Shown piece after piece: positions 6,020 to 36,129 of a DNA stretch of 56,183 nucleotides (positions are counted from its first letter, which is position 1; every line of letters begins with the position of its first letter). Below the pieces are notes generated by a model. The model was not told where the DNA came from. It searched no databases and saw only the letters and a list, made by a program, of their open reading frames with translations. The position numbers were made by a program, and so were the translations under genes. Origin of the DNA: Bacteroidales bacterium (GTDB lineage: Bacteria > Bacteroidota > Bacteroidia > Bacteroidales > VadinHA17); the NCBI GenBank assembly GCA_027028505.1, contig JALVJE010000209.1, positions 1 through 56,183 of the forward strand. Direction: 5' to 3'.

Positions 6020-8641
6020 TCATCCTTCTGCCAGCCCCATATCTTTCTTTATGGCTTCGATCTTCTGCACCAGTTCCGCATCCATCCTGTCAAAGTCGGC
6101 GGGGTCTTTCAGCTCCCCTTTGACACTGAAATAGAACTTGATCTTGGGTTCGGTCCCCGAGGGGCGCACCGATACCTTTGAGCCGTCGTGCAGGATGAAC
6201 TGCAGCACGTTGGATCGGGGCAGGGTGATGTGATAGCGCAGGTCGGAGATCAGATCGATGGTCTGCTGTTTCAGGTAATCGTGGATGAGCATCACGTTGG
6301 AACCGTTGATGGTCTGGGGATAATGGCTGCGGAAGTTATCCATCATGGCCTGGATCTCTTCGGCCCCTTTCTTGCCCTTGCGCACGATGTTCAGCAGGTC
6401 TTCCCGGTAAAAGCCGAACTGCACGTAAATATCTTTCAGCAGGTCGAGGAGGCTCTTCCCCTGGTCTCTGGCCCAGGCGGCGGTCTCGGCCACCATCACG
6501 GCTGTGCTGACGGCGTCCTTGTCGCGCACGAAGTCGCCCACCATGAAGCCGTAGCTCTCCTCGCCCCCACCGATGAAGGTCATCTTCCCCTCATTGCGGC
6601 GGATAACGTCGGCGATCCATTTGAAGCCTGTCAGCACATCGAAATATTTCACTCCGAAGTGCTTTGCAATATCAGCTAGCAGATCGGTGGTCACGATGGT
6701 CTTGACAATATACTCTTTGCCGGTCAGTTTTCCTTTCTCCTGCCAGCGCCGCAGAAGGTAATAGGTGAGCAGGGTGGCGGTTTGGTTGCCGTTGAGGAGG
6801 CGCATGGCCCCTTTGTCGTCGCGCACGGCGATACCCAGGCGGTCGCCGTCGGGGTCGGAGGCCATCACCAGCTCGGCGCCGGTCTCGTCGGCTCTCTTCA
6901 GGGCCATCTCCAGGGCGGCATGCTCCTCGGGGTTGGGTGACACCACCGTGGGGAAGTTACCGTCGGTAATGTCCTGCTCGGGCACGTGGATGATATTCTT
7001 AAATCCGTAACGCTCCAGGGCCGTGGGCACCATTTTCACCCCGGTGCCGTGGATGGGCGTGTAAACGATCTTCAGGTCGCTGTGTTTTTTCACGGCCTCC
7101 GGCGACAGGGAGAGGGAGGTCACCTCTTTCAGGTAGGCCTCGTCCACCTCTTCCCCGATGATCTTTATCTTCTCTTTGGGTCCGTCGAACATCACCTGGG
7201 AAGGATCCTTGATGCGGGCTACCTCGGCGATGATCGCTTTGTCGTGGGGGGGGATCACCTGGGCGCCGTCTTCCCAATAAGCTTTGTAACCGTTGTACTC
7301 TTTGGGGTTGTGCGAGGCCGTGATCATCACGCCGCTCTGGCAGCCCAGATGGCGTATCGCAAAGGAGAGCTCGGGCGTGGGACGCAAGTCGTCAAAGAGA
7401 AAGACCTCAAAACCGTTGCCGGCAAAGATGCCGGCCGTCGTCTCGGCGAAGAGACGGCTGTTGTTGCGGCAGTCGTGCGAGATGACCACGCGGATGACCT
7501 CACGGCCGGCAAACTGTTTCTTCAGGTAGTTGGCCAGGCCCTGTGTGGCCATACCCACGGTATAGATGTTCATCCGGTTGGTGCCGGCGCCCATGATGCC
7601 GCGCAGGCCGCCCGTACCGAACTCCAGATGTTTGTAAAAAGCATCAATGAGCTGGTCGGGGTCTCCGTCCAGCAGTGCCTGCACCTCCTTTTTGGTCTGT
7701 TCGTCGTAAGGACCTTCCAGCCACTCGCGGGCTTTGGCCTGCACCTGTTCCAGTAAATTATCTTTTTCCATATCTGTCGTTATTAAATTTTTCAAACATT
7801 TCCGTAATCCCTCTTTCCAGTGAGGTATCGTGATCCCGTAATCCTTTTTGATCTTCTCCTTCGCCAGCACGCTGTAAAAGGGACGTGGTGCCGGCCGGTT
7901 GAACTGTTCCGACGTAACTGCCAGCACGGGTATTCTCTTCCCTGCCGTTTCCAGGATCTCTTTTGCAAAGTCGTACCAGCTGCAGACCCCCTCATCGGCA
8001 TAATGATAAATGCCGGGCTTCCATCCCCCTTTCTCCTCAGCCCTGTCGATCACCTGTAGGATGGCTTCCGCCAGGTCGCCGGCATAGGTCGGCGAGCCGA
8101 TCTGGTCATAAACGACCTCCAGGGCCTCCCGCTCGTCCGCCAGCCGCAGGATGGTCTTTACGAAATTACTGCCCTCCTCGGAGTACAGCCAGGCGGTACG
8201 TATCACCAGGGTGTCGGAATACTCCAGGGCGATACGTTCCCCTTCGTACTTGCTCTTGCCATACACCGACCGGGGATCTGGACGGTCGCTCTCGCGATAA
8301 GGCCGGTAGCTCGTCCCGCTGAAAACATAGTCGGTCGAGATGTGGATCAGCCGGAAAGGATGCTCGTGCGTGACCGCCAGCAGATAGGCCACAACATCGG
8401 CATTGAGCAGGAAAGCCCGGGCCGGCTCTTCCTCGGCCCTGTCCACGGCCGTATAAGCCGCACAGTTGATGACATAATCGGGGCGCTCCTGCAGGAGGAA
8501 AGCCATGACTGTCTCCCGGTCGGTCAGGTCCAGCTCACCGATATCGGTAAAGAGGAATTGCCAGCGGGGCCGGCGCTCCGAGGCCTTCCTCAGCGCACTG
8601 CCCAACTGTCCGTCCGCACCGGTGACGAGGATCTTTGGCAT
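6020..8641 (-). CDS. rfbD-pgm: Single 873-aa ORF: dTDP-4-dehydrorhamnose reductase (RfbD/RmlD, about aa 1-290) fused to phosphoglucomutase/phosphomannomutase (internal ATG at 7771)
   Basis: N-terminal part has TGADGQLG, NCAAYTAVD, ISTDYVF, YGKSK and RP..S.L. C-terminal part has LEFGTGGLRG, phosphoserine loop TASHNP, metal loop DPDGDR, GEES and RPSGTEPKIK. No stop codon at the junction (KCLKNLITTDMEKD). Confidence 0.85.
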   Translation of the reverse strand: MPKILVTGADGQLGSALRKASERRPRWQFLFTDIGELDLTDRETVMAFLLQERPDYVINCAAYTAVDRAEEEPARAFLLNADVVAYLLAVTHEHPFRLIHISTDYVFSGTSYRPYRESDRPDPRSVYGKSKYEGERIALEYSDTLVIRTAWLYSEEGSNFVKTILRLADEREALEVVYDQIGSPTYAGDLAEAILQVIDRAEEKGGWKPGIYHYADEGVCSWYDFAKEILETAGKRIPVLAVTSEQFNRPAPRPFYSVLAKEKIKKDYGITIPHWKEGLRKCLKNLITTDMEKDNLLEQVQAKAREWLEGPYDEQTKKEVQALLDGDPDQLIDAFYKHLEFGTGGLRGIMGAGTNRMNIYTVGMATQGLANYLKKQFAGREVIRVVISHDCRNNSRLFAETTAGIFAGNGFEVFLFDDLRPTPELSFAIRHLGCQSGVMITASHNPKEYNGYKAYWEDGAQVIPPHDKAIIAEVARIKDPSQVMFDGPKEKIKIIGEEVDEAYLKEVTSLSLSPEAVKKHSDLKIVYTPIHGTGVKMVPTALERYGFKNIIHVPEQDITDGNFPTVVSPNPEEHAALEMALKRADETGAELVMASDPDGDRLGIAVRDDKGAMRLLNGNQTATLLTYYLLRRWQEKGKLTGKEYIVKTIVTTDLLADIAKHFGVKYFDVLTGFKWIADVIRRNEGKMTFIGGGEESYGFMVGDFVRDKDAVSTAVMVAETAAWARDQGKSLLDLLKDIYVQFGFYREDLLNIVRKGKKGAEEIQAMMDNFRSHYPQTINGSNVMLIHDYLKQQTIDLISDLRYHITLPRSNVLQFILHDGSKVSVRPSGTEPKIKFYFSVKGELKDPADFDRMDAELVQKIEAIKKDMGLAEG

Positions 8642-8673: not shown

Positions 8674-8820
8674 AGTTCAGAGTTCACGGTTCACAGTTCA
8701 CAGTTCACAGTTCATAGTTCATAGTTCATAGTTCACAGTTCAGAGTTCACAGTTCAGAGTTCACAGTTCAGAGTTCACAGTTCAGAGTTCACAGTTCACA
8801 GTTCACAGTTCACAGTTAGA
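8674..8820. repeat. Heptamer VNTR, 20 units of AGTTCA(C/G/T)
   Basis: 20 contiguous units at 8674-8813 (one GGTTCAC variant) plus a degenerate unit; followed by a module E hairpin at 8825-8857. Confidence 0.95.
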
Positions 8821-10157: not shown

Positions 10158-10345
10158 AGTTCATAGTTCATAGTTCAGAGTTCAGAGTTCAGAGTTCAGA
10201 GTTCAGAGTTCACAGTTCACAGTCCCGCAGTTCCCGGGATTTGATCCTGCTGGAACTGCGAGGATCCTCGAAAAACTACGCAAATCAAAGATTTGCTGTT
10301 TTTCGGGATTCACAGTTCAGAGTTCAGAGTATCTGGTTTTGAGTT
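10158..10345. repeat. Composite intergenic repeat: AGTTCA(T/G/C) heptamers plus module D
   Basis: Heptamers begin just after the GH130 stop. Module D at 10222-10309 differs from 5783-5870 at one base. Confidence 0.85.
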
Positions 10346-10407: not shown

Positions 10408-12834
10408 TTACTTCTTCACCACCTTCAGCACCTCTTTACGGCCGGGATAACAGAGTTCGAGCAGATAGAGGCCCGGCGCCGGGGGCAGGGTGAAGGAGCA
10501 GGTGGAAGAGGGAATATTGTCAAAGGCTCTGATCTGCCGTCCCTGCAGGTCACGCAGCACCATCCGGTAAGGCACCCTGCCGGGGGCAAACTGCAGGGTC
10601 ACCCTGTCCTCCGACGGATTGGGCCGGACGCTCGCCAGCGGATCGTCACGCCCATCCTGCACGGCCAGGGGACAAGGATACACACAGTTGCTGATCACGG
10701 TGAAACCGTCTTTGGTGATCCTGACAGCATAATGCCCCTCACGCTCGGGAGTAAAAGACTGAGCCGTAGCGCCCCCCATGGGATTGTACAAGAGGTCACA
10801 ATCCAGCCAGCGGTAAACGGCCCCTTCTTCAATGGCAGCCAGATCGCCATAACCTCCCTCACCTCCTGTAAGGCAATAGGCCACTGCTCTTTTATCGAGG
10901 GGGATCAGCGGCTCCACTGAGGGAGGCCAGCCCCTGAAGACCTCCCAAAAGAATACCCTGAAATCATAGTCATTCAGGATCAGATGATCCCGTGCAATCT
11001 CCTGTTTTTCGATGAGCGCAGCGTTGAGGGATGCCGCTTCGTCATCTTTTCTGATGTAATACTCCACATCTTTCTTATAATCCACATTGTCAGACCCTCC
11101 GGAATATCCCACCAGCCGGTATTGTGTCCCGGCGGAGGTACGCTGGTAATCGCTTCCTATCAACTCAATAAGCCTCGTCTCCAGGTCGTAGGCCACGGAA
11201 TCGATGGCCTGTGCCAGGGGTGTGATCTGCGGATCGCCGTCATTGACCCCATTTTTGAGGATGCTGCGGAACAGGACGTTCACGTCGATGGTGGAGGTGG
11301 TACGCTGGCTGTAGCTCTCGTTATGGACCCGTTCTCCCGGCCAGTGGGCGGTGTTCAGAACAGGATCATCATAATAAAAAGAGGTCATGCCAGTCTTGTC
11401 GAGCGTGGCATTATCTCCGGTGAGGATCACCGACCACACAGCATCCTGCAGGTCACCGGTCCAGGGGATCTCCATACGTACGTTCAGAAGGCGGGAGCTG
11501 TCTTTCGTAACCGTTATCTCATCACTCTCTATCGTCTGTTCACCGTCACCGGTAAAGAGTGTGAGCATAAACCTTACCCGGGTATTCCCCTGTGAAGTGA
11601 TCTTTGCCAGGAAATCATATTTTCCCGGTCCGTTGTTCTGCAGGGCGAGCCCTACGTCCTGGCTGATCTTCACCTCTGTGGCGGCCGCATCATTGATGTA
11701 CAGGAAATGATCCTCCCTGCTTACTCCCGGGGTCACCGTGCCCCCCTCGGTCGTCCAGTGCTTCAGTCCCTCCTCAAATCCCGGATTACTGAGCATGTTC
11801 CACCACACATCCGGTCCCGAGGTGATCATCTTCGTGATCTCCGGCCATGCCCACTCCTCCAGGATACCGTTGCCGTTATGGTCTCTTTGTGCATCGTAGA
11901 TGCCTGTACCGCCGTCGAACATCATCAGATACGCCGAGGGGATCCCTCTGTCGATGAACCTGCGCGTGTTGTCCACAGCCATGGGCCAGGCCACCCACAT
12001 CTCGTTATCATCGGTCTTGGAGGCCCAGGCACCACTCCACACCACCTGTTTGGCGGAATCCATGTATTCCCATGCCTGCTGGATGAGACGTACGTTATCG
12101 CGTACATCCGATTTCAGCACATGGAAATCCCACATATACCAGATCCCGGCTTCGGGCGGGATGGGATCAAAATCCCTGGTAATGAACCAGTCGGCTCCCG
12201 GGCCGAAAGGGTTGTCCTTGACATTCTGCGGCGGCACCTTAAAATAGATAATGAGACGGTCGGGATTGGTCTTGCGTATCTCCCGGGTGATCTCCTGATA
12301 ATAGACGGCGATGCGCTGCGGATCGTCATTGTTCACCAGACGCCAGGGTTCCACAAAAAGATCGAAGATGAGACGATGGCTTTTGTCTTTGAAACGATCG
12401 GCCACATAGCCCCACCAGCTCACCATCTTGTCCAGGTCGCCGGGGTTGTCATCCGTCAGACCGACAAAAGTGATGACCACGGCCAGGTTCTTGCTCAGCA
12501 GGTCGTCGATGATATCCTCCAGCTCATTGAGCAGGGCGTCATCGTCAGCATCGTAGGGAGGTCCGTCGGCGATGGCAATTATCATGGGGTTCTTGTCCCC
12601 CTGGTACCGTATACGCACGCTCCTGAAACCGGCCGCCACGATGCTGTCGCCATAGGCAGGACGGTAGGGCGCCGAGACCCCCAGGTCTACACCGCCCGAC
12701 TCCGGCTCAAACAGAATACCCTTATCCAGCATGGTTACGGCCGTCACCGGCGACACCGGCGGATCCGGCGGCTGAGCCATCATACCAACCTGAAAGCAGA
12801 GCAGAAGAAGAATATAGAGGAGGTCTTTTTTCAT
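10408..12834 (-). CDS. T9SS-secreted multidomain protein: GH5-like TIM barrel, CBM4/9-like module, helical domain of unknown type, Ig-like module, T9SS CTD
   Basis: Signal peptide; GFRSVRI, W..VADRFKD...LIFDLFVEP, IRKTNPDRLII and DFH follow the GH5 motif order; NPGFEEG starts a CBM-like module; C-terminus VRPNPS...LRDLQGRQI...PGLYLL...KVVKK is a T9SS CTD. Confidence 0.7.
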   Translation of the reverse strand: MKKDLLYILLLLCFQVGMMAQPPDPPVSPVTAVTMLDKGILFEPESGGVDLGVSAPYRPAYGDSIVAAGFRSVRIRYQGDKNPMIIAIADGPPYDADDDALLNELEDIIDDLLSKNLAVVITFVGLTDDNPGDLDKMVSWWGYVADRFKDKSHRLIFDLFVEPWRLVNNDDPQRIAVYYQEITREIRKTNPDRLIIYFKVPPQNVKDNPFGPGADWFITRDFDPIPPEAGIWYMWDFHVLKSDVRDNVRLIQQAWEYMDSAKQVVWSGAWASKTDDNEMWVAWPMAVDNTRRFIDRGIPSAYLMMFDGGTGIYDAQRDHNGNGILEEWAWPEITKMITSGPDVWWNMLSNPGFEEGLKHWTTEGGTVTPGVSREDHFLYINDAAATEVKISQDVGLALQNNGPGKYDFLAKITSQGNTRVRFMLTLFTGDGEQTIESDEITVTKDSSRLLNVRMEIPWTGDLQDAVWSVILTGDNATLDKTGMTSFYYDDPVLNTAHWPGERVHNESYSQRTTSTIDVNVLFRSILKNGVNDGDPQITPLAQAIDSVAYDLETRLIELIGSDYQRTSAGTQYRLVGYSGGSDNVDYKKDVEYYIRKDDEAASLNAALIEKQEIARDHLILNDYDFRVFFWEVFRGWPPSVEPLIPLDKRAVAYCLTGGEGGYGDLAAIEEGAVYRWLDCDLLYNPMGGATAQSFTPEREGHYAVRITKDGFTVISNCVYPCPLAVQDGRDDPLASVRPNPSEDRVTLQFAPGRVPYRMVLRDLQGRQIRAFDNIPSSTCSFTLPPAPGLYLLELCYPGRKEVLKVVKK

Positions 12835-12859
12835 GAGGTTAATATATCCAGGAATAATG

Positions 12860-13075
12860 GTTTCAGGTTTCAGGTTTCAGGTTTCAGGTTTCAGGTTTCA
12901 GGTTTCAGGTTTCAAGTTTCAAGTTTCAGGTTTCAGGTTTCAGGTTCCAGGTTCCAGGTTTGTGGTTGGTGGTTGGTAGTTGGGAGTTTACCCATCAATC
13001 CATTATTCCATTATTCCAACATTCCTTTTGCCTTATTACTTATTACTTTTTACTTTTTATCCTTTCCGCCAGTGC
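12860..13075. repeat. Heptamer VNTR (GTTTCAG x14 with variants) followed by GGTTGGT, TCCATTAT and TTACTTA/TTACTTT tracts
   Basis: 14 contiguous units at 12860-12957 (10 GTTTCAG, 2 GTTTCAA, 2 GTTCCAG). Confidence 0.9.
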
Positions 13076-14158
13076 TTTCCCGAACCGGGCGGCGCCTTCC
13101 ACGCTCAGGTGCACTTTATTTTTCGGTGACTTAAAGAGATCATCAGGTCCGGTGAGGGCTGCCCCGTTGATATAATGGATGTGCCGGTCGCCGGCCGCCA
13201 TAAAAGACTGTACCACCTCCTGCTGTACCTTGCGCCAGTCGTCAAAGTTCAGGGGATGTCCCTTCTTGTCTGTTTTCTTTTCGGTATAGGTCTGTCCCAG
13301 CACAAAGAGGGTTGTCTCCGGATGGCCCTGGCGCACGGTCCCGATGAAGCTCTTCAGCCGCTGCCGGTAGGTAGCCGTATCGATCCCCTGAAAGACCGCA
13401 TCGTTAAAGCCGATCAGGATGGTCATAAAATCTATGGGACTTTTGATCTCATCTGCTATCATGCGGGCCATGGCCACAGAGGTCCTGGAGCCTCCCACGG
13501 CGAGGTTGTACAGGTCCCAACCCATTTCCCGCGCCAGGATCCAGGGATAGGTCTGATCGCCTGTACGCTGGCCCTGTCCGTGCGTGATAGAGTTGCCATA
13601 AGCTATGTAAACAGGTTTTTTCGTCACCGGCAGGGGAAGCAGCTTACCGCTGCCGCCGGTGAGCTCCAGCCTCTCCAGCGCCAGATGGGCGAAGGTGGGC
13701 AGCACCACCGTATAGGTATGATACCCCTTCCCCGGCGCCTGTACCTCCAGAGAGAAGAGACTGTCGCCGGAGCTGGTAAGATCTTCCCTTTTTTGCTTCA
13801 GCATGCCCACGGAGTCGCCGTCAACATACAAAGAGAAATAAAGCATAAAGTCGTTCCTGCCCGGCAGCATCCTGAAAAAAAGATCCGTTTTTTGGGCATC
13901 CGTCTTAAAAGAGATCCTGATGCCGGAGGTGGTACGGGCGTTGCGGGGGTTAACCTGTGAGATATTGGTCCGCAGTGCCAGAAAAGCATCGCTGTGACGC
14001 TGGAAAATGACCAGCGAATCACTTATCCTGTTAAAAAACGCTCCCCCGTAACGGATCGCAGGGTCATCCGGACGGATCAGGGACTGTCCCGCAACAGCGA
14101 CCGTAACTGCAAATAAAAGGAAGCTCAGAAGATGTTTCTCCCTGCTCATACCTTTCAC
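13043..14158 (-). CDS. Secreted SGNH/GDSL esterase
   Basis: Signal peptide; block I YGNSITHG, NLAVGG, IGFND and C-terminal HLSVEG. The GTG start overlaps the upstream sulfatase TGA (alternative ATG at 14149). Confidence 0.8.
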   Translation of the reverse strand: MKGMSREKHLLSFLLFAVTVAVAGQSLIRPDDPAIRYGGAFFNRISDSLVIFQRHSDAFLALRTNISQVNPRNARTTSGIRISFKTDAQKTDLFFRMLPGRNDFMLYFSLYVDGDSVGMLKQKREDLTSSGDSLFSLEVQAPGKGYHTYTVVLPTFAHLALERLELTGGSGKLLPLPVTKKPVYIAYGNSITHGQGQRTGDQTYPWILAREMGWDLYNLAVGGSRTSVAMARMIADEIKSPIDFMTILIGFNDAVFQGIDTATYRQRLKSFIGTVRQGHPETTLFVLGQTYTEKKTDKKGHPLNFDDWRKVQQEVVQSFMAAGDRHIHYINGAALTGPDDLFKSPKNKVHLSVEGAARFGKALAERIKSKK

Positions 14159-15900
14159 TCGATTATAGTATTGACACTATGCTTTTTGGTGGATGTGTTC
14201 CTGAAGAACTTTTTCTTCACCACTGCACTTTCCCTGTAACCGATGCGCTGGGCCATGACATAGAGATATTTCCCGCGCGGCACACGCAAAGGCTTGTAAT
14301 AGACCTGCCATCCTGCATTGAGGTCCGGATTGAAATCCTTATTACTGATGAGATAGGCAATGGAAGCCCCTTCTGTTTTGCAGGAGAGGGTGATCTCTTT
14401 GCCTTTTACAGTTATTTTGGGTTTCTGCGTCACCGGTTGTTTCCCGCCGGGCCACATCTTCAGGAACATCTCTTTCTCCGGTGTCGCAGCCATATCCCCT
14501 GTGGCGGCCAGCCATTCATCCATGGCCTTCCGCATCTCCTCCAGCTTGCCGGAGAGAGAAGGATCATCGATGATATTGTGCACATTCTCCGGATCCTTTT
14601 CACAGTCGTACAGCTCTTCCGGCATTTTATACAGGCGGAACCAATAGTTCTGGGCAGTGGTGAGCCGCCCCATTTTCAGGAGATAGAGCATATCCCGCAT
14701 CATAGGGATATTTTTACGATAGGCAATATCCTTGTACCCCGGCAATTCGGGGTGATAGTTCCTCACGTACAGATAGCGGTGATCTCTTACTACGCGGTTG
14801 CGGTCGGTGTGCTCATCGAAACGGTCGCCCGTACCGAAAATATATTTCCGCTGTTCTTTTACCCGCTGGGGCCCCATGAAAGCACGCCCCTGCATATAGT
14901 CCGGGATCTTCACGCCTGCGATGGAGAGCATGGTGGGTGCCAGGTCCACAAAGGAGATAAGCGCATCCACCCGGCCGTTCTTCACCCAGGAAGGATCGAC
15001 CCCGTATTTTTTCCGGTATTGTTTGGGTATGCGGACGATGAAAGGCACGCGCAGTCCCGAATCGTAATTGAGGCGTTTGCCGCGGGGCAGCGGACCGCCG
15101 TGATCACTGAAAAAGAAAATGATCGTGTTGTTGTACTCCCCTGCCCTTTTCAAGGCTTTGATCATTTCCCCTATTTGCTTGTCCAGCACTTCGATATTGG
15201 AATAGTTCCGGGCCACGTCGGTACGCACGATCGAATCGTCGGGAAAGTAGGAAGGCAGGGGAACCACCTCCGGCGAGACCGTCTGGGGCTTGTCTGCCCT
15301 TTTCCAGATCTGTGACTCATGGGTCACATTGTGATTGTACACCGAAAAGAAAGGCATATCCCAGGGAGCATGTTTCCATTCGGCTTTGGTGTTGTTCTCA
15401 TCCCAGGCCGTCACCGGGGCCGCGAACTGGTAGTCGGTCTTTTGGTTGTTGGTACAGTAATACCCTCCCTCCCGCATATATTCAGTAAAACACTTCACCT
15501 GGGGCGGAATGACGGCACTGTAAAAAGGCACCGTATCCCCGTTGATATCCACATGGTTGCTCTTCCCGGAATACTCCCTTTTCCCCCACGACATCACATC
15601 ATGGGCGGTACGCATGTGCATGGTACCGATAGAGGTGGGATACATCCCTGTGATGATCGAGGAGCGGCTGGGGGCACATACGGCCACCACCGCAAAGACA
15701 TTGTCAAAGACCAGACCCTCGGCAGCTAGCTTATCCAGGTTGGGCGTGTGCGCCGTAGAGTCGCCGTACATAGAGAGCGTAGGACTGATATCCTCACAGG
15801 TAAGCCACAGGATATTGGGTCGCCTGCTCTGGGCAAACAGACCGGAAAACATCATCACCATCATCCCCAGCAAAAAGATCTTTCTCATCATTTTCTGCAT
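14155..15900 (-). CDS. Cys-type formylglycine-dependent S1 sulfatase with a C-terminal FN3/chitobiase-like domain
   Basis: RPNILWLTCEDISP, CAPSRSSIITG (CxPxR), SDHG, DLAPTMLSIAG and PEELYD; signal peptide. Confidence 0.9.
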   Translation of the reverse strand: MQKMMRKIFLLGMMVMMFSGLFAQSRRPNILWLTCEDISPTLSMYGDSTAHTPNLDKLAAEGLVFDNVFAVVAVCAPSRSSIITGMYPTSIGTMHMRTAHDVMSWGKREYSGKSNHVDINGDTVPFYSAVIPPQVKCFTEYMREGGYYCTNNQKTDYQFAAPVTAWDENNTKAEWKHAPWDMPFFSVYNHNVTHESQIWKRADKPQTVSPEVVPLPSYFPDDSIVRTDVARNYSNIEVLDKQIGEMIKALKRAGEYNNTIIFFFSDHGGPLPRGKRLNYDSGLRVPFIVRIPKQYRKKYGVDPSWVKNGRVDALISFVDLAPTMLSIAGVKIPDYMQGRAFMGPQRVKEQRKYIFGTGDRFDEHTDRNRVVRDHRYLYVRNYHPELPGYKDIAYRKNIPMMRDMLYLLKMGRLTTAQNYWFRLYKMPEELYDCEKDPENVHNIIDDPSLSGKLEEMRKAMDEWLAATGDMAATPEKEMFLKMWPGGKQPVTQKPKITVKGKEITLSCKTEGASIAYLISNKDFNPDLNAGWQVYYKPLRVPRGKYLYVMAQRIGYRESAVVKKKFFRNTSTKKHSVNTIIE

Positions 15901-16156: not shown

Positions 16157-17755
16157 TTAGTTTATACTTCCGAAATCCTTATCCGTGATCTCCCTGAACT
16201 CCTCCAGGCTGCCCGTATCTTTCACCTGCACCATGAGCTTTTCCAGCTCTGTTTTCAGGCTGTCAAACAAATGGGCATACGCAGGATCACCGGCCACATT
16301 GTTCAGCTCATCGGGATCTTTCTGCAGGTCATACAGCTCCCACACATCTATGTTGTAATAAAAATGTGCGATCTTATATCTCTCCGTACGCATCCCGTAA
16401 TGGGGCTGTACATGATGCCAGAAAGGCCATTCGTAATAATGGTAATACACCTTTTTCCTCCAGGGTACATCTTTCCCCTCGATGACCTCGCGGAAGCTCG
16501 TCCCCTGCACCTCTGCCGGCGCTTTGATCCCGGCAAAGTCAAGGAAGGTAGGTGCAAAATCAACATTGGAGATGAGGGTCCTGTTCACCACCCCTTTAGG
16601 CAACTCGGCCGGGTAGCGCATCAGGAAAGGCATCCGGAAGGAGGGCTCGTAGATGAACCTTTTATCAAAGAACCCGTGGTCGCCCAGGTAAAAGCCCTGA
16701 TCAGCGGTATAAACCACTACCGTATTATCGGCCAGACCGTTCTTGTCCAGGAAATCCAGCACCCGTCCTACCTGGTTGTCCACCGACTTCACGCAGGCCA
16801 GATAATCCTTGATGAAACGCTGGTATTTCCATTTGCGGGCCTCTTCAATGGTCTTGCATCCGGGGGGCATCCAGGCCTCTCCTTTTTTATTGCCATAGGT
16901 ATACCATTTCTGAAGCTCTTTTCCTTTCAGTCCGGGCGGAGGGGTCAGTTTCATATCCTTGCGGTTGAGATAATCCATGGTCATCCAGGTATCCCCGGCA
17001 GTCTTCTCCCGCGTCTTGTAATCATCATTGAACGTGGGAGGATAGGGCATGTCCGTATCGGGATACATATTCCGGTAGATCGAATCGGGCTCCCAGTTGC
17101 GGTGCGGCGCCTTGAAATGCAGCAAGAGCAGGAAGGGTTTTCCGGAATCTTTCACGCGGTTGAGCCAGGCCAGGGCCGTATCGGCCGTGATATTGGTGGC
17201 ATAGCCTTTAACATGTACCTGCTTCCCGTTGTAATCATACACCGGGTTCCAGTAATATCCCTGTTGTCCGGGGTTGTTGTGGTACATGAAGAAATCAAAG
17301 CCGCGGGGGCGTGTTCCCAGATGCCATTTTCCCACCATGGCCGTAGTGTAGCCGTGGCGGTGCAGTTCCTGGGGAAAGGTCCACTGGTCGGGGTTGAACC
17401 GCCCGCCGCTCTCATTCTTATAATAGCCGTTCTCATGACTGTATTTTCCGGTGATGATGATCGCCCGGCTGGGTCCGCAGATGGCATTGGCACAGTAGAC
17501 ATTGTCAAAACGAATGCCCTCCTTTGCGATCCTGTCGATATTGGGCGTCGGAAAATACTTGGCATAACGGTCATTGTAGGCGCTGATGGCCTGCGTCGTA
17601 TGATCATCCGCCATGATGTAGATGATGTTGGGACGCTGATCCGTTTGGGTAACCTCTTTTTTCTTCGTAGCACACGAAGTAAAAAAAGGCACAAGCAGCA
17701 AAAGCCACAGCCAGGAAGCTGTGATGTTCCGGGAAAAGTGATAATTTGATCTCAT
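16157..17755 (-). CDS. Cys-type S1 sulfatase lipoprotein, N-acetylglucosamine-6-sulfatase-like
   Basis: Lipobox FFTSC; RPNIIYIMADDH, ICGPSRAIIITG, GKWHLG, HFKAPHR, YTADQGFYLGDHG and WELYDLQKDP. Confidence 0.9.
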   Translation of the reverse strand: MRSNYHFSRNITASWLWLLLLVPFFTSCATKKKEVTQTDQRPNIIYIMADDHTTQAISAYNDRYAKYFPTPNIDRIAKEGIRFDNVYCANAICGPSRAIIITGKYSHENGYYKNESGGRFNPDQWTFPQELHRHGYTTAMVGKWHLGTRPRGFDFFMYHNNPGQQGYYWNPVYDYNGKQVHVKGYATNITADTALAWLNRVKDSGKPFLLLLHFKAPHRNWEPDSIYRNMYPDTDMPYPPTFNDDYKTREKTAGDTWMTMDYLNRKDMKLTPPPGLKGKELQKWYTYGNKKGEAWMPPGCKTIEEARKWKYQRFIKDYLACVKSVDNQVGRVLDFLDKNGLADNTVVVYTADQGFYLGDHGFFDKRFIYEPSFRMPFLMRYPAELPKGVVNRTLISNVDFAPTFLDFAGIKAPAEVQGTSFREVIEGKDVPWRKKVYYHYYEWPFWHHVQPHYGMRTERYKIAHFYYNIDVWELYDLQKDPDELNNVAGDPAYAHLFDSLKTELEKLMVQVKDTGSLEEFREITDKDFGSIN

Positions 17756-17800: not shown

Positions 17801-20128
17801 CTACAATGTATTTTCACCGATGGAAATTTTTCCTGTGAGCAGGTCCTGGTCCCTCGAGGAAGATCCTACCATAATGGTAAAGACGCCAGGCTCGACCACA
17901 TAATGGTCATCGGCATCATAATAACCCAGCTCCCGGACGGGCAAACGGAAAACGACCTTCTTCCTCTCCCCTGTTTGCAGATGGACCCTCCTGAACCCTT
18001 TCAGTTCTTTCACCGGACGTGTTGCCGAGGAATAATCATCCCTGATATAAAGTTGTACGATCTCATCCCCGTCCATGCTCCCTTTGTTGGCCAGCCGCAC
18101 GCTCACTGTGATGGTATCCTGCAGGCCGGCCTTTGCCGGCAGGTCCAGGCCGGAATAGGAGAAATGCGTATAGCTCATCCCCTGTCCGAAACTCCACAGC
18201 GGTTTCGAAGGAATATCAATGTACTGGTGCAGGTAAGCCGAGGGAAGATAGTTGTATACCATGTGTACCTGGCCCACATCCCAGGGGATGGTAACGGGCA
18301 GTTTTCCGGAGGGATTCACCGTTCCCTTCACTACCTCTGCGATGGCCTGTCCGCCGAAGGCGCCTGGTTCCCAGGCCTCGATGATGGCAGGGACAGTCCT
18401 TTTGATCCAGGGCTCGGCCAGGGGCCGGCCATTGATAAAGACCACCACCACATTTTTGTTTCTCTTATAGATCTCCTTCACCAGCTTCAACTGGTTGCCC
18501 TGCAGATCGATGTGGGCCCTGTCCACATTCTCTCCGCAATTCTTTTCCTTGTTGTCATAACGCAGGGAGTTGGATCCTACCACGACCACCACTACATCAT
18601 AGGAAGCCGCGCGTGCAATGGGAGCTTTCAGCTTCGAATCATCGGGATAACGCAGGCTCTCGCCACTGTTGATAAAGTCCACCCGGGTACCGGCAAAGAC
18701 CTTTTTCAACCCTTCATAGACCGTGGTCACATGCTCTTCGGGTTGTTGCAGGGCCCAGTCGCCCAGGAGGCGATGATTGTTGGCATTGGGACCTGTCACA
18801 AGGATGCTTTTCACGTTCTTCAGCGGCAAAAGACCTTTGTTTTTCAGGAGGATGACCGATCTTCGGGCCGCTTCGAGGGCCAGTTGCTGATGCTCCGGCG
18901 TGAAAAGGGCCTCCTCTGCCTTCTTCTCATCGCACAACGGTTGTTCGAAAAGACCCAGCATGAATTTGGCCTGCAGGATCTTCCGTGCAGCACGGTCAAT
19001 ATATTTCTCATCCAGGCGGCCTGTCTCGACCGAGTTTTTCACCGATTCCAGAAAACCCGGTCCGTGCATATGCATGTCCATACCCGCCTCAATAGACTCA
19101 ATGTAAGCATCCGCTATGGTGGAAGCCGCATGATGCAGCGTATGGATCCTTTCTATGTCCATCCAGTCGGACACGACAAAACCGTTGAAACCCCATTCGT
19201 TGCGCAGCACGTCGGTGAGGAGGAATTTGTTCTTATGGGCAGGCGTCCCGGACACCTCATTGTGGGCGGCCATGAAGGTATAGACCCCGGCCTCCACCTG
19301 TGCCCGGAACGGGGGGAACCAGAGGTTACGCAGCCGCCGTACCGATGCATCCAGGGGGGCAGCGTTCAGTCCGTTGAAAGGCTCCCCGCCTCCTACAAAA
19401 TGTTTGGCGCAGGCGATGACATTGTCTTTGCCCATATCGCCCTGGTACCCTTTGGTAAAAGCTGCCCCCATGGCAGCCACCAGAAAGGGATCCTCGCCGA
19501 AGGTCTCACCGGTGCGGCCCCAGCGCGGGTCGCGTGCCACCTCCACATTGGGCGAGAAGGTCCACTGCATCCCTGTAGCCCGCATCTCCTGTGCCGTCGC
19601 CACAGCAATACGCCGGGCCAGCGCCGTATCCCAGCTGCTGGCCAGCGCCAGCTGGGTGGGATATACCGTCGCCCCATAGATGAGCGCATCTCCGTGGATG
19701 GCATCGATACCCAGAAGAAGAGGGATCTTCAAACGTGAGGCCATAGCCAGCCGCTGCAACTCATTGGCCTCCTTCACATCTTTCACATGCAGGAACGATC
19801 CGATCTTCCCCTCCTTCACCATATTCTTCAGATCCTCCGTGCTCAGGCCGGGATACATGCCGTACTGGTCATCCCCTTTCTTCAGTTTATGGGTCTTGCG
19901 GTACTGCTCTTTGGTTTTCCGGATATGCTCCGGCGCTACGAACTGGCACATCTGACCGATCTTCTCCTCCAGGGTCATCCGCTGCAGCAGATCCTCCACA
20001 CGCCGGTCAACAGAAAGGGAGGGATCCAGATAGGCAGGTGCGCCACCTTTTTCCGGCTGCGAAGAGGTACAACCTCCCAGAAAAAGGATCGTACCTGTGA
20101 TCAGTAAAGAGAACAAAGTATTCTTCAT
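17801..20128 (-). CDS. Glycoside hydrolase family 3 (BglX-like beta-glucosidase) lipoprotein
   Basis: Lipobox LGGC; MTLEEKIGQ, RDPRWGRTGETFGEDP, CAKHF, nucleophile motif VVSDW, SGKLPVT, FGQGMSYT and FN3-like EIVQLYIRD...PVKELKGF. Confidence 0.92.
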   Translation of the reverse strand: MKNTLFSLLITGTILFLGGCTSSQPEKGGAPAYLDPSLSVDRRVEDLLQRMTLEEKIGQMCQFVAPEHIRKTKEQYRKTHKLKKGDDQYGMYPGLSTEDLKNMVKEGKIGSFLHVKDVKEANELQRLAMASRLKIPLLLGIDAIHGDALIYGATVYPTQLALASSWDTALARRIAVATAQEMRATGMQWTFSPNVEVARDPRWGRTGETFGEDPFLVAAMGAAFTKGYQGDMGKDNVIACAKHFVGGGEPFNGLNAAPLDASVRRLRNLWFPPFRAQVEAGVYTFMAAHNEVSGTPAHKNKFLLTDVLRNEWGFNGFVVSDWMDIERIHTLHHAASTIADAYIESIEAGMDMHMHGPGFLESVKNSVETGRLDEKYIDRAARKILQAKFMLGLFEQPLCDEKKAEEALFTPEHQQLALEAARRSVILLKNKGLLPLKNVKSILVTGPNANNHRLLGDWALQQPEEHVTTVYEGLKKVFAGTRVDFINSGESLRYPDDSKLKAPIARAASYDVVVVVVGSNSLRYDNKEKNCGENVDRAHIDLQGNQLKLVKEIYKRNKNVVVVFINGRPLAEPWIKRTVPAIIEAWEPGAFGGQAIAEVVKGTVNPSGKLPVTIPWDVGQVHMVYNYLPSAYLHQYIDIPSKPLWSFGQGMSYTHFSYSGLDLPAKAGLQDTITVSVRLANKGSMDGDEIVQLYIRDDYSSATRPVKELKGFRRVHLQTGERKKVVFRLPVRELGYYDADDHYVVEPGVFTIMVGSSSRDQDLLTGKISIGENTL

Positions 20129-20296
20129 AATTCAATTTTTTGTCTTGCCTAAGTGTTGCATTTTTTAAAACAGTGAGCACGCATAACAAGGGATCATAAG
20201 CGGCGCAAAATAATAAAATTCACAGAAAGAAATATCATGATGGACATGATAAAGAAAGAACCTCCCGGCATAAAAGATTTTTTTATTTTTATGTGC

Positions 20297-21463
20297 ATGG
20301 AAAGAGCGTTTCAACCTGTTACCCTCGGGCCGCTGACGCTGAAGAACCGTTTCATCAAATCGGCCACCTACGAGGGATTTTTTGATGAGGGCATGCCCAC
20401 GCAGGGTCTCACGGACCATCATGCGGCGCTGGCCCGGGGGGGTGTAGGCCTGACCACTGTCTCTTACGGGGCGGTGTCGCCGGAGGGCCGTACCTTTCAC
20501 AATCAGATGTACATCCACGAAGGCACCCTGCCGGCCCTGGCCGGGGTGGCGGAGGCCGTGCACCGCGCCGGCGTGAAGATCTCCATGCAGCTTACCCATT
20601 GTGGGTTCTTCACCAAGAACAAAGAGGCTGGCAAGCCACTGGGACCCAGCCGTCTGCTCAACCAGTACGGACTGCTCAACGGCCTGCCTTTCTCCAAAGA
20701 GATGGACCGTGACGACATGGATCGGACGGCCGGACACTTCGCCCTGGCTGCAGAGCGCCTGGCCGGGGCCGGCTACGATGCTGTGGAAGTGCACATGGGC
20801 CACGGCTACCTGCTGAGCCAGTTCCTCAGCCCGGCCACCAACCGGCGAAAAGATGCATACGGAGGCCCCATTGCCAACAGGGCCCGTTTTCCGCTGGAGG
20901 TGTTCCGGCAGGTGAAAGAGCGCGTAGGCCACCGCCTGGCCGTGCTGGTCAAGCTGAACATGTCCGATGGCTTCCGCGGCGGTCTGACAGTGGAGGAGAG
21001 CAGCTACGTGGCCCGGGAGCTGGAGCGGCTGGGGGCCGACGCCCTCGTGCTGACAGGAGGATTTACCAGCAAGACCCCTTTCTACCTCATGCGCGGCGAG
21101 GTGCCCCTGAAAGGCATGATACAGAACGGCGAGAACGCAGCCGAAAAGATCTCCATGGCCCTCTTCGGGCCGCTGATCGTTAAAAAATATCCTTTCACGC
21201 CCCTCTTCTTCCTCGACCAGGCCCTGCAGATACGACGGTCGGTGAAGATGCCCCTGGCATACCTGGGCGGTGTGGACGGCCGGGAGGATATCTCCCGCCT
21301 CATGGATGCCGGTTTCGACCTCATCGCCCTGGCCCGGCCTCTGATCCACGACCCGCAGTTCTTGCAAAAGCTGCAGAGAGGAGAGATCGACCGCACCGCC
21401 TGCGACCGCTGCAATGAGTGTGTCGTGGAAATGGACCGGGGAGGAGTGAGATGTGTGAAGTGA
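20297..21463 (+). CDS. NADH:flavin oxidoreductase (Old Yellow Enzyme family)
   Basis: Start reassigned to 20297 (MERAFQPVTLGPLTLKNRF). QLTHCG, EVHMGHGYLLSQFLSP.TNRR.D.YGG...NRARF, LARPLI and a C-terminal CDRCNEC cluster motif. Confidence 0.88.
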   Translation: MERAFQPVTLGPLTLKNRFIKSATYEGFFDEGMPTQGLTDHHAALARGGVGLTTVSYGAVSPEGRTFHNQMYIHEGTLPALAGVAEAVHRAGVKISMQLTHCGFFTKNKEAGKPLGPSRLLNQYGLLNGLPFSKEMDRDDMDRTAGHFALAAERLAGAGYDAVEVHMGHGYLLSQFLSPATNRRKDAYGGPIANRARFPLEVFRQVKERVGHRLAVLVKLNMSDGFRGGLTVEESSYVARELERLGADALVLTGGFTSKTPFYLMRGEVPLKGMIQNGENAAEKISMALFGPLIVKKYPFTPLFFLDQALQIRRSVKMPLAYLGGVDGREDISRLMDAGFDLIALARPLIHDPQFLQKLQRGEIDRTACDRCNECVVEMDRGGVRCVK

Positions 21464-22105
21464 GAAGGCAAAAGTAATCCGACTTCGTCCCGGTACACCG
21501 GGACTACGTCGGACGAGGAAAGGCAGAAGGAAGGATGAAGGATGATCGTCGAAGGTCGAATGTCCAGGAGTCAAAGAGTGGAAAAAGTATGAAAAGTGGG
21601 AAAAGAAAGATATGACCTATAAGTCCTTCGATACGCCTTCGGCTACTCAGGAACCGGTGTTGAGTAGGGAGTAGGGAGTAAGGAGGAGGGAGGAGCGATG
21701 AGCTCCGCCTTCGCTAATCCCGATAGCTATCGGGATCGGCGGACAAAGGATGAAGCGATAATGCGAAAACAACTCCAAACTCAGATATAGGTATTTAAAT
21801 ACCTATTTAATTACCTATTAAAATACCTATTTAAATAGGTAGATCTGAAATTAAAATCAGAAGTCAGTGCCTCTTTGCGGAACTTGGCGGAATCTTCGCG
21901 TACCTTTGCGTATCAGCATGATATACACTCATATAAGCTATTACGCAAAGAGTTGCAGTGTTGCACGCAAAGGTCCGCAAAGGAAGTTAGTTTGTAGTTT
22001 GAGGTTTGTAGTTTGAGGGAGCGCCGTTTCAAGCATTCAAGCATTCCCCGTCCGAACGGCCTCGGCCGGGCGGGAATCATTCAAGCATTAAATTCTTTCC
22101 CTCCC
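21464..22105. repeat. Large composite intergenic repeat: modules F, B, C, 12-mer array, G, E with heptamer/octamer linkers
   Basis: F at 21478-21516, B at 21625-21655, C at 21704-21744, 12-mer x5 at 21785-21844, G (CTTTGCG.../...CGCAAAG arms) at 21873-21982, E at 22046-22074. Confidence 0.85.
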
Positions 22106-35880: not shown

Positions 35881-36129
35881 GTCCCGCAACTCTTAGGATC
35901 TTCGATCCTATAGAGTTGCGAGGATGCTCGCAAATGCTGCAAGCAAGCATTTGCGGCAGGTGGAGTTACGAGTTATGAGTATCGGGTATCGAGTTCACAG
36001 TTCATAGTTCATAGTTCATAGTTCGTAGTTCGTAGTTCGTAGTTCGTAGTTAATTCATCAACTTTTCAATTTTTCAACTTTTCAACCTATCAACCTATCA
36101 ACCTATCAACCTATCAACTTATCAACTCA
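35881..36129. repeat. Divergent module D (35881-35955), AGTTCA/CG heptamers x8 (35992-36047), TCAAC octamers x9 (36058-36129)
   Basis: Read directly; the TGA stop of the C25 gene (36127-36129) lies inside the last octamer. Confidence 0.85.

What the first reader, a model, noticed from the sequence alone, without database searches (positions are those of the whole stretch)
11810..12730. GH5-like barrel that keeps the acid/base Glu but has Ala at the nucleophile position
Seen: the motif order follows GH5, but NEP reads VEP (E162), the beta-6 HY reads DFHV, and the beta-7 GEF/W nucleophile motif reads VWSGAW (A269). The usual beta-3 His also appears absent (VVITFVG). Established: clan GH-A enzymes need two glutamates for the retaining mechanism. 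Inference: a secreted glycan-binding pseudoenzyme, or an enzyme using substrate-assisted or other non-canonical catalysis, which is notable next to two sulfatases. The alignment was made by eye.
Basis: partly seen in the sequence, partly recalled or inferred. Interest (0 to 1): 0.55.

Follow-up and report, generated by a model that had tools for sequence, protein, structure and literature searches.

The report
GH5 barrel with alanine replacing nucleophile
A secreted Bacteroidales protein has a true family-5 glycosidase barrel in which one of the two catalytic glutamates is always alanine, and it belongs to a large uncharacterised group, routinely annotated as cellulases, that shares this rewired pocket, so its members are either enzymes with an unusual mechanism or sugar binders.

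Summary
The gene lies on the minus strand (10408-12834, 808 aa): signal peptide, GH5-type barrel (residues 21-345), CBM-like beta-sandwich, helical bundle, small beta domain, T9SS tail.

The AlphaFold model (pLDDT 89) matches GH5 structures (Z 29.5, rmsd 2.4 A). Profile-profile alignment places E162 on the acid/base Glu and A269 on the nucleophile Glu. Of eight canonical GH5 residues, only R74, E162 and H238 remain.

New here:
- GAW is invariant in all 31 close homologues.
- It also defines a much larger clade (at least 743 sequence clusters, many in Firmicutes).
- The Ala co-varies with an acidic residue two positions before the beta-6 His (D236 here; 54/59 against 2/58) and with an extra Arg on beta-2 (R76).

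dN/dS is 0.06-0.09, and invariant residues concentrate on the catalytic face.

The favoured reading is an active glycanase with E162 as acid and D236 as second carboxylate, as in the GH97 retaining/inverting split. A binding pseudoenzyme remains a serious rival. No model coordinates were available, so the geometry is untested. Substrate is unknown; neighbours are S1_11- and S1_8-like sulfatases, SGNH esterases and GH3.

The parts
10408..12834 (-). Whole gene, 808 aa plus stop: signal peptide, GH5-type barrel, CBM-like module, helical bundle, small beta domain, T9SS tail
   Evidence: ORF list and translation; 30 full-length homologues at 55-94% identity; dN/dS 0.06-0.09 over the barrel
12775..12834 (-). 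N-terminal signal peptide (residues 1-20), read from the sequence (basic start, hydrophobic core, A-Q)
   Evidence: Translation; inferred from sequence, no predictor was run
11800..12774 (-). GH5-lineage (beta/alpha)8 barrel, residues 21-345
   Evidence: PF00150 37.5 bits; AF2 pLDDT 89.4, pTM 0.91; Foldseek best match CtCel5E, TM 0.73; VIA-align Z 29.5, rmsd 2.4 A over 276 residues, top 45 rows all GH5
12349..12351 (-). E162, equivalent of the GH5 acid/base Glu at the end of beta-4 (motif VEP in place of NEP)
   Evidence: Aligned to the Glu of NEP by phmmer against the PDB, MAFFT and hhalign; invariant in the family and in every GAW-type relative
12028..12030 (-). A269, at the position of the canonical beta-7 nucleophile Glu (motif GAW in place of GEF/GEW)
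   Evidence: Strand beta-7 is 265-270 in the model; aligned to the nucleophile; a clade B relative aligns GAW onto GEF of CtCel5E, whose Glu is E314 by the E314A entry titles; invariant in 31/31 homologues
12121..12129 (-). D236-F237-H238 at the end of beta-6: retained canonical His (H238) and the clade-specific acidic residue (D236) proposed as the second carboxylate
   Evidence: Alignment; an acid at this column occurs in 54/59 Ala-type sequences against 2/58 Glu-type sequences
12607..12615 (-). R74-I75-R76 on beta-2: R74 is the canonical Arg that partners the nucleophile; R76 is a clade-specific extra Arg (canonical Pro)
   Evidence: Column comparison: R76 column is R in 41/42 clade B and 8/8 sister sequences, and P in 54/58 canonical sequences
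11365..11799 (-). CBM-type beta-sandwich, residues 346-490
   Evidence: PF02018 CBM_4_9 E 5.8e-4, below cut-off; AF2 model; Foldseek matches CBM16, CBM61 and CBM22 at E about 2e-7
10936..11295 (-). Helical bundle, residues about 514-633, no assigned family
   Evidence: DSSP on the AF2 model, pLDDT above 90; the Foldseek list is taken up by the CBM part, so this part is effectively unsearched
10693..10887 (-). Small beta domain, residues about 650-714
   Evidence: DSSP on the AF2 model
10411..10623 (-). T9SS type A C-terminal sorting domain, residues 738-808
   Evidence: TIGR04183 20 bits, just below the cut-off of 23; PF18962 precomputed on most homologues
12859..12961 (.). Heptanucleotide tandem repeat, 14.7 copies (TGAAACC on the gene strand), 25-127 nt upstream of the start codon
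   Evidence: TRF and sequence; the 97%-identical orthologue locus L002 has only 3-5 copies of related heptamers
13043..14158 (-). SGNH/GDSL esterase (371 aa), the most consistently linked neighbour
   Evidence: Pfam; adjacent to the orthologue in L002, L004, L012 and L013, on either side
14155..15900 (-). Sulfatase, S1_8-like
   Evidence: Pfam; best PDB match 9bb9 'S1_8A sulfatase', E 7e-76; that entry comes from a lambda-carrageenan cascade preprint
16157..17755 (-). Sulfatase, S1_11-like (GlcNAc-6-O-sulfatase type)
   Evidence: Pfam; best PDB match 5g2v, N-acetylglucosamine-6-sulfatase, E 4e-139
17801..20128 (-). GH3 exo-glycosidase, same strand and cluster
   Evidence: Pfam GH3 N and C domains plus Fn3-like; conserved in L004

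Best explanation
The gene encodes a T9SS-secreted, CBM-bearing glycanase-like protein. Its N-terminal domain descends from GH5 (nearest structures: CtCel5E, TmCel5A, MtGlu5) but belongs to a large, uncharacterised 'GAW' superclade with a rebuilt -1 subsite.

Shown:
- the beta-7 nucleophile Glu is Ala in every member;
- the acid/base Glu (E162), the beta-2 Arg (R74) and the beta-6 His (H238) are kept;
- three replacements co-occur with the Ala: an acidic residue two positions before the beta-6 His (D236), an extra Arg on beta-2 (R76), and Trp on both sides of the Ala.

Inferred: the protein is catalytically active on a decorated (sulfated and/or acetylated) glycan but does not use the classical double displacement through a beta-7 glutamate. 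E162 would protonate the leaving group. D236 would supply the second carboxylate. It sits one layer deeper in the barrel, beside the cavity opened by A269. It would act either as a general base activating a water in that cavity (single-displacement, inverting chemistry, as in the GH97a/GH97b split) or as a relocated nucleophile.

The CBM-like module would hold the polymer. The neighbouring esterases, sulfatases and GH3 would trim the products.
For: - Fold and residue equivalences.
- GAW, VEP, WDFH and RIR are invariant in 31 homologues down to 42% identity.
- The same Ala with an acid at beta-6(-2) occurs in the sister clade (NEP kept, CBM96 fused) and in clade B. The contingency is 54/59 against 2/58.
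- 116 of 117 further clade B proteins carry W.GAW plus E[WS]H plus R[IVL]R, and none carries GE[FW]G.
- D236 is the only family-invariant acid that stays acidic across clade A, the sister clade and clade B; the E43 column is K/N/R in clade B and the near-invariant D307 is N/S in the sister clade.
- Purifying selection: dN/dS 0.06-0.09.
- Invariant residues are about 5-fold enriched on the C-terminal (catalytic) face of the barrel: 25/64 against 30/261, Fisher p about 1e-6.
- The architecture is enzyme-like, with an appended CBM16/61/22-type module.
- It is the only endo-glycanase candidate in a cluster of two sulfatases, two SGNH esterases, GH3 and GH130.
- Precedent: GH97 contains both inverting members (Gly at the nucleophile position, Glu base elsewhere) and retaining members (PMC2670981).
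Against: - No activity data exist for any member. All source names are 'hypothetical' or 'cellulase family'.
- Model coordinates are not exposed, so the D236-E162 distance, and whether D236 merely salt-bridges R74/R76 inside the barrel, could not be measured.
- Five of eight canonical GH5 active-site residues are replaced, which also fits loss of catalysis.
- Two clade B representatives have Gln in place of the beta-6 acid (P0121, P0153).
- All 59 Ala-type sequences may trace to one or two evolutionary events, so the co-variation is not 59 independent observations (tree).
- Non-catalytic GH5 modules are documented (PMC3526467).
Confidence: 0.45

Rival explanations
1. Non-catalytic glycan-binding module (pseudoenzyme). 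The barrel keeps a conserved sugar-binding groove but cleaves nothing. Together with the CBM-like domain, the protein acts as a secreted or surface-attached glycan-capture protein for the locus.
For: The nucleophile is absent, and the Asn of NEP, the beta-3 His, the beta-6 Tyr and the beta-8 Trp are also replaced. Inactive GH5 modules and a whole inactive subfamily (GH5_30) are documented. Conservation on the catalytic face and purifying selection are equally expected for a binding site. In several orthologue loci the gene stands among housekeeping genes, without partner CAZymes (L006).
Against: The acid/base Glu is retained in every GAW-type sequence seen, across clades under 30% identical, and a new carboxylate appears next to the vacated site. 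A binder that itself carries a separate CBM is unusual. The cluster otherwise lacks an endo-acting enzyme.
Confidence: 0.35
2. Substrate-assisted catalysis. The 2-acetamido group of a GlcNAc or GalNAc in the -1 subsite acts as the nucleophile (as in GH18, GH20, GH84 and GH85). A269 makes room for the oxazoline, D236 polarises the amide, and E162 is the acid/base.
For: Ala at the nucleophile site. The Asn that normally binds the 2-OH is replaced by hydrophobic Val or Ile in this clade and in clade B. Trp residues flank the site (W235, W266, W270). The neighbouring sulfatase is closest to a GlcNAc-6-O-sulfatase (5g2v, E 4e-139).
Against: The sister clade keeps NEP. There is no D-E or DxE pair next to the acid/base. 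No hexosaminidase family appears among the listed structural matches, which is inconclusive. The sulfatase link is confined to close relatives. I know of no clan GH-A enzyme using this mechanism (own knowledge; literature searches found nothing).
Confidence: 0.12
3. Ordinary retaining GH5. The apparent loss would be an alignment artefact, and another Glu or Asp actually sits at the nucleophile position.
For: Pfam and PDB sequence searches align only the N-terminal half, residues about 27-197, so the C-terminal half is strongly diverged.
Against: Three independent lines agree on A269: DSSP strand assignment of the model, a 121-sequence MAFFT alignment, and hhalign of separately aligned groups. 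A clade B relative also aligns GAW directly on GEF of CtCel5E and scores slightly better against the E314A mutant chain. No acidic residue lies within the VWSGAW strand.
Confidence: 0.03

Closest known systems
GH5 subfamily 25-type endoglucanases/mannanases (CtCel5E 4u3a, TmCel5A 3amc, FnCel5A 3nco, MtGlu5 7vt4)
   Same: Same (beta/alpha)8 fold (Z 28.9-29.5, rmsd 2.4-2.6 A). Recognisable sequence similarity over beta-1 to beta-5 (E 3e-12). Same beta-2 Arg, beta-4 Glu and beta-6 His, and a similar C-terminal G-x-x-IYD motif.
   Different: Nucleophile Glu is Ala; Asn of NEP is Val; beta-3 Asn/His are Thr/Gly; beta-6 Tyr is Leu; beta-8 Trp is Leu. New D236, R76 and W266. About 17-22% identity.
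Clade B 'WVGAW' proteins (for example P0084, and L017 in Butyricicoccus pullicaecorum DSM 23266), annotated as cellulase family / GH5 proteins
   Same: Ala at the nucleophile position, Glu acid/base, RIR on beta-2, an acid two residues before the beta-6 His, and Trp flanking the Ala. hhalign probability 100%.
   Different: Glu rather than Asp on beta-6; the beta-6 Tyr is kept; Ile-Glu rather than Val-Glu-Pro; a different beta-8 region. Mostly 330-470 aa, many from Firmicutes, with cell-wall-binding, SLH or Cu_amine_oxidN1 modules instead of a CBM and T9SS tail.
Non-catalytic GH5 modules described by Aspeborg et al. 2012 (GH5_30; Xanthomonas GH5_1 offshoot; GH5_8-related lipoproteins)
   Same: GH5 modules with incomplete catalytic machinery. 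The authors explicitly allow for 'alternate mechanisms' (PMC3526467).
   Different: GH5_30 is fungal and lies among the mannanase-related subfamilies. The others are small, fast-evolving offshoots. The present clade is bacterial, large, slowly evolving, keeps the acid/base and has gained a nearby carboxylate.
GH97 (BtGH97a inverting against GH97b-type retaining)
   Same: Within one TIM-barrel glycosidase family, a small residue (Gly469) sits where relatives have the nucleophile, and a carboxylate from another position acts as general base (PMC2670981). This is the same logic proposed here for A269 and D236.
   Different: A different family and clan, acting on alpha-glycosides and calcium-dependent. 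There the mechanism is proven experimentally; here it is only inferred.

Membership tests
GH5 (clan GH-A) | (beta/alpha)8 barrel superposable on GH5 structures | tested here: met
   Foldseek probability 1.00, TM 0.73 to 4u3a; VIA-align Z 29.5, rmsd 2.4 A over 276 residues; top 45 rows are all GH5
GH5 (clan GH-A) | Sequence match to PF00150 above the gathering score | tested here: met
   37.5 bits against a cut-off of 23.5, but only residues 61-196, profile positions 26-164 of 272
GH5 (clan GH-A) | Acid/base Glu at the end of beta-4 (NEP motif) | tested here: met
   E162 aligns to the Glu of NEP; the preceding Asn is Val
GH5 (clan GH-A) | Nucleophile Glu at the end of beta-7 | tested here: not met
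   A269 occupies the column; invariant Ala in 31 homologues and in the wider GAW clades
GH5 (clan GH-A) | Remaining conserved active-site residues: beta-2 Arg, beta-3 His, beta-6 His and Tyr, beta-8 Trp | tested here: not met
   R74 and H238 are kept; the beta-3 His is Gly125, the beta-6 Tyr is Leu240 and the beta-8 Trp is Leu303
GH5 subfamily 25 | Clusters inside the subfamily in a phylogeny with CAZy reference sequences | not tested
   No CAZy subfamily references or dbCAN models were available. In the local tree the GAW clades branch outside the canonical GEF sequences.
GH5_30 (non-catalytic fungal subfamily) | Fungal proteins near the mannanase subfamilies that lack the catalytic residues | tested here: not met
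   GH5_30 is listed as fungal only. This protein is bacterial, nearest to GH5_25-type structures, and keeps the acid/base.
Substrate-assisted hexosaminidase-type families (GH18/20/84/85) | A polarising Asp/Asn adjacent to the acid/base (D-E, DxE, NxE) and fold similarity to those families | tested here: inconclusive
   The motif is V-E here and N-E in the sister clade. None of these families appears among the 50 listed structural matches, which does not exclude them.
T9SS cargo protein | N-terminal signal peptide plus type A C-terminal sorting domain | tested here: inconclusive
   TIGR04183 scores 20 bits against a cut-off of 23 for this protein. PF18962 is recorded on most orthologues. The family profile also matched two chains (8glk_D 'Endonuclease I', E 1.5e-5; 5uyt_A 'Ice-binding protein', no stretch passing alone) over this tail, not examined further.

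The most novel reading that the evidence does not exclude
The 'GAW' superclade comprises this T9SS family, its CBM96-bearing sister clade, and the large clade B (many Firmicutes members with cell-wall-binding, SLH or Cu_amine_oxidN1 modules), at least 743 sequence clusters in all, currently annotated as cellulases. It would be the first lineage of clan GH-A to abandon the beta-7 nucleophile while staying catalytic, using a beta-6 carboxylate as a general base (inverting) or as a relocated nucleophile. That would be a mechanistic switch inside GH5 analogous to the GH97 split, probably with non-cellulosic, anionic or cell-wall glycan substrates.
Probability: 0.3. Interest if true: 0.8.

Novelty: new variant of a known kind. 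Interest (0 to 1): 0.55.

Why it matters
Clan GH-A is the textbook case of a fixed catalytic pair: Glu on beta-4 and Glu on beta-7, acting with retention.

A large, conserved bacterial lineage that replaces the nucleophile with Ala, keeps the acid/base and gains a carboxylate on the adjacent strand has two possible meanings:
- a natural experiment in how glycosidase mechanisms switch, with one residue pair to mutate and one stereochemical read-out to measure; or
- a large family of lectin-like pseudo-glycosidases.

Either outcome corrects current annotation. Named members are called 'cellulase family glycosylhydrolase' or 'glycoside hydrolase family 5 protein'; most carry no name.

The Bacteroidales members sit next to sulfatases and esterases and may be the missing endo-acting step for a sulfated or acetylated glycan. 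Clade B includes cultured organisms such as Butyricicoccus pullicaecorum DSM 23266, so it is experimentally tractable.

Tried and rejected
- **Plus-strand ORF 11707-13134.** Rejected as an antisense shadow of low-complexity sequence.
- **Direct HMM alignment of the C-terminal half to PDB GH5 chains.** Both the single sequence and the family profile stop at about residue 197. The beta-6 to beta-8 equivalences had to come from the clade B bridge, MAFFT and hhalign.
- **3D distances.** Model coordinates are not written to /data and no structure tools are installed, so the position of D236 relative to E162 and A269 could not be measured.
- **The look-up of encoding contigs.** Context came from genome-contig loci instead.
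- **Paralogues and phylum sampling.** There is a single copy in the window's own genome. There were 0 hits in 400 other sampled genomes of the phylum at E 1e-20, so the family is rare and patchy among those searched.
- **Clade B gene context.** Neighbours in L017, L029 and L068 were an unrelated glycine-betaine-type and an ABC-2-type transporter set, a His-phosphatase/GNAT fusion, or proteins without Pfam families. Nothing informative emerged.
- **ESM Atlas.** It returned only generic 'cellulase' clusters.
- **Earlier findings of this scan.** Nothing by sequence.
- **Literature.** Searches for a GH5 lacking the nucleophile, substrate-assisted clan GH-A, and 'GH5-like' with nucleophile found no description of this clade. 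The library is incomplete, so this is not proof of novelty.
- **Phosphorylase reading** (phosphate as nucleophile, as in GH112). Considered and set aside because the protein is exported by T9SS.
- **Lyase reading** (His/Tyr chemistry). Set aside because the Tyr is lost in this clade.
Full report
**1. What is at the coordinates**

The finding (11810-12730) lies inside an 808-codon ORF on the minus strand, 10408-12834. The overlapping 475-aa plus-strand ORF translates to low-complexity sequence and is an antisense shadow.

- VVITFVG at 118-124
- FVEPW with E162
- WDFHV with D236 and H238
- VWSGAW with A269

Codon positions were verified.

The protein starts with a typical signal peptide. It ends in a T9SS type A sorting domain: TIGR04183 scores 20 bits, just under the cut-off, and PF18962 is recorded on most orthologues. 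A 97%-identical orthologue lies on a contig of a Bacteroidales MAG (L002).

**2. Fold and residue equivalences**

Pfam PF00150 is hit above threshold, but only over residues 61-196. PDB sequence searches likewise stop at about residue 197.

An AlphaFold2 model of residues 21-345, built on 31 sequences, is confident (pLDDT 89.4, pTM 0.91). It shows eight strands, with VWSGAW forming beta-7.
- Foldseek puts CtCel5E, FnCel5A and TmCel5A on top (TM about 0.73).
- An exhaustive VIA-align search of 48,161 chains gives Z 29.5 and rmsd 2.4 A over 276 residues to MtGlu5. The first 45 rows are all GH5.

'A non-GH5 fold' is therefore refuted.

For the diverged C-terminal half I used three routes:
- A 121-sequence MAFFT alignment of hits from the representative search.
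- hhalign between separately aligned groups, which gave probability 100% and E 1e-56 for this clade against canonical GH5.
- A bridge through a distant relative, P0084. Its GAW aligns directly on GEF of CtCel5E, and it scores marginally better against the E314A mutant chain; the entry titles name that Glu as E314.

All three routes agree on the following equivalences:

| Canonical GH5 residue | This protein | State |
|---|---|---|
| beta-2 Arg | R74 | kept |
| beta-3 Asn / His | T122 / G125 | replaced |
| Asn of NEP | V161 | replaced |
| Acid/base Glu | E162 | kept |
| beta-6 His | H238 | kept |
| beta-6 Tyr | L240 | replaced |
| Nucleophile Glu | A269 | replaced |
| beta-8 Trp | L303 | replaced |

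**3. Conservation and the wider clade**

Thirty full-length homologues (55-94% identical, plus one at 39-42%) keep VEP, WDFH and GAW without exception.

A search of 1.84 billion representatives found only about 14 clusters with full-length matches, followed by many GH5 proteins that match the N-terminal half. Inspecting these gave the main new result. The Ala is not peculiar to this family. There are three groups:
- **Clade A:** this family (VEP, DxHxL, GAW).
- **Sister clade:** keeps NEP and is fused to CBM96.
- **Clade B:** much larger, with IE, ExHxY and WVGAW.

Clade B has at least 743 clusters at 90% identity with E below 1e-20. Of 117 listed members, 116 carry W.GAW plus E[WS]H plus R[IVL]R, and none carries GE[FW]G. 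Its members include cultured Firmicutes such as Butyricicoccus pullicaecorum DSM 23266, Brevibacillus and Eubacterium. They often carry cell-wall-binding, SLH or Cu_amine_oxidN1 modules.

Across the 121 sequences, Ala at the nucleophile column goes with an acidic residue two positions before the beta-6 His:

| Nucleophile column | Acid at beta-6(-2) | Other residue |
|---|---|---|
| Ala | 54 | 5 |
| Glu | 2 | 56 |

The Ala also goes with Arg in place of Pro two residues after the beta-2 Arg, and with Trp at beta-7(-3) and beta-7(+1). These sequences are related by descent, so this may reflect only one or two events (tree). Even so, the state has then been held across very deep divergence.

Other candidate acids in this family do not extend across the superclade. 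E43 is not conserved in clade B, and D307 is not conserved in the sister clade. D236 and its Glu equivalent are the only acid shared by all three groups.

**4. Selection**

dN/dS over the barrel is 0.06 against the 97%-identical orthologue, and 0.09 against two orthologues at about 79% identity.

Invariant columns are about five-fold enriched in the last residues of the strands and the loops that follow, which form the catalytic face. The counts are 25 of 64 against 30 of 261, Fisher p about 1e-6. The pocket is therefore maintained. This alone does not distinguish binding from catalysis.

**5. Rest of the protein and context**

Residues 346-490 fold as a CBM-type beta-sandwich. The best matches are CBM16, CBM61 and CBM22 (E about 2e-7). 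This is followed by a confident helical bundle of unknown affinity and a small beta domain.

The gene sits in a same-strand cluster with:
- an SGNH esterase
- an S1_8-like sulfatase (9bb9, E 7e-76; that entry comes from a lambda-carrageenan cascade preprint)
- an S1_11-like sulfatase (5g2v, GlcNAc-6-O-sulfatase, E 4e-139)
- a GH3
- a second, double SGNH esterase
- an RmlD-phosphoglucomutase fusion

A GH130 gene lies on the opposite strand within the same cluster.

There is no SusC/SusD pair in the window.

Synteny with the sulfatases holds in the close Bacteroidales and Rikenellaceae relatives (L002, L004). The 371-aa SGNH esterase is adjacent in four orthologue loci besides the window, on either side of the gene, including Chlorobiota and Marinilabiliaceae MAGs. 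Other orthologues sit next to beta-helix proteins and a GH29 fucosidase, or among housekeeping genes.

The family is rare. There is one copy in the window's own genome and none in 400 other sampled genomes of the phylum. All 12 orthologue loci are from MAGs.

**6. Interpretation**

Four readings remain.

*Favoured (0.45): an active glycanase with rewired chemistry.* E162 is the general acid. D236, one layer deeper on the neighbouring strand and next to the cavity left by A269, is the second carboxylate. It would act either as a general base on a water molecule (inverting) or as a relocated nucleophile. The logic has an experimentally proven precedent in GH97. There, inverting members have Gly at the nucleophile position and use a Glu base from elsewhere, while retaining members have the Asp (PMC2670981). 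Retention of R74, the canonical partner of the nucleophile carboxylate, fits a carboxylate still being positioned there (inference).

*Pseudoenzyme (0.35).* This remains serious:
- Five of eight canonical residues are gone.
- Inactive GH5 modules are known (PMC3526467).
- Two clade B sequences have Gln at the beta-6 position.
- D236 could simply neutralise R74/R76 inside the barrel.

*Substrate-assisted catalysis on a 2-acetamido sugar (0.12).* This is attractive for three reasons. The Asn that binds the 2-OH has become hydrophobic. Trp residues line the site. A GlcNAc-6-sulfatase-like gene is nearby. Against it, the sister clade keeps NEP and the sulfatase link is local.

*Alignment artefact hiding a normal nucleophile (0.03).* This is essentially excluded.

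**7. Novelty**

GH5 modules with incomplete machinery have been noted before. Aspeborg et al. explicitly allowed for 'alternate mechanisms', but their examples are fungal GH5_30 and a few small offshoots. Ten literature searches found no description of this bacterial GAW superclade or of the beta-6 carboxylate co-variation. No member has a solved structure closer than E 1e-12 to GH5_25-type enzymes. Source names are only 'hypothetical' or 'cellulase family'.

I rate it a new variant of a known kind, with moderate interest. It is directly testable with one structure, one stereochemistry experiment and three point mutants.

**8. Limits**

- CAZy subfamily assignment could not be made.
- The substrate is unknown.

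Noticed in passing
window 12859-12961; also 8674-8817 and 10158-10223: Heptanucleotide tandem arrays lie in the intergenic regions of this cluster. GGTTTCA x14.7 ends 25 nt upstream of the GH5-like start codon. AGTTCAC x20.6 lies between the divergent RmlD-PGM and GH130 genes. AGTTCAG x9.4 lies after GH130. The 97%-identical orthologue locus L002 has only 3-5 copies of related heptamers at the equivalent place, so copy number varies between close relatives. This may be a phase-variable or expression-tuning repeat.
   Followed up: partly
window 6020-8641 (-): An 873-aa fusion of an RmlD-type dTDP-4-dehydrorhamnose reductase domain with a complete four-domain phosphoglucomutase/phosphomannomutase. 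It is conserved at about 80% identity next to the GH5-like gene in L003 and L004.
   Followed up: partly
P0045, P0114 and P0103 (representative-search hits): P0045 and P0114 are canonical GH5 sequences (NEP, HxY, nucleophile Glu) that already carry Asp two residues before the beta-6 His, so they may be evolutionary intermediates. P0103 sits inside a canonical clade but reads GAF with DEP, an apparently independent loss of the nucleophile.
   Followed up: no
L017:8027-9861 and L017:10922-16272 (Butyricicoccus pullicaecorum DSM 23266): The clade B GAW gene is flanked on the same strand by four ORFs (326, 292, 1079 and 698 aa) with no Pfam family at E 1e-4. This is an uncharacterised gene set around a cultured-strain member of the superclade.
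   Followed up: no
window 289-787: Tandem repeat with a period of about 145 bp (2.7 copies, 95% identical) and a 115-bp variant, near the start of the window. It is GATGAGC-rich and contains an inverted GGACAAGGC/GCCTTGTCC element.
   Followed up: no
window 36127-40239 (-) and 40416-43763 (+): A 1370-aa gingipain-type C25 peptidase (propeptide, catalytic domain, Ig-like and CARDB domains). It is divergently placed next to an 1115-aa Y_Y_Y/Reg_prop sensor fused to a SpoIIE (PP2C) phosphatase domain.
   Followed up: no
window 20165-21574 (-) and 22112-24364 (-): A 469-aa protein with no Pfam family lies directly downstream of the GH3 gene in the same cluster. It is followed by a CBM9/DUF5916 protein. 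Both may belong to the same glycan system.
   Followed up: no
window 54816-56048 (+): A DDE (IS4-type, DUF4372-bearing) transposase in the low-GC (0.41) end of the window.
   Followed up: no
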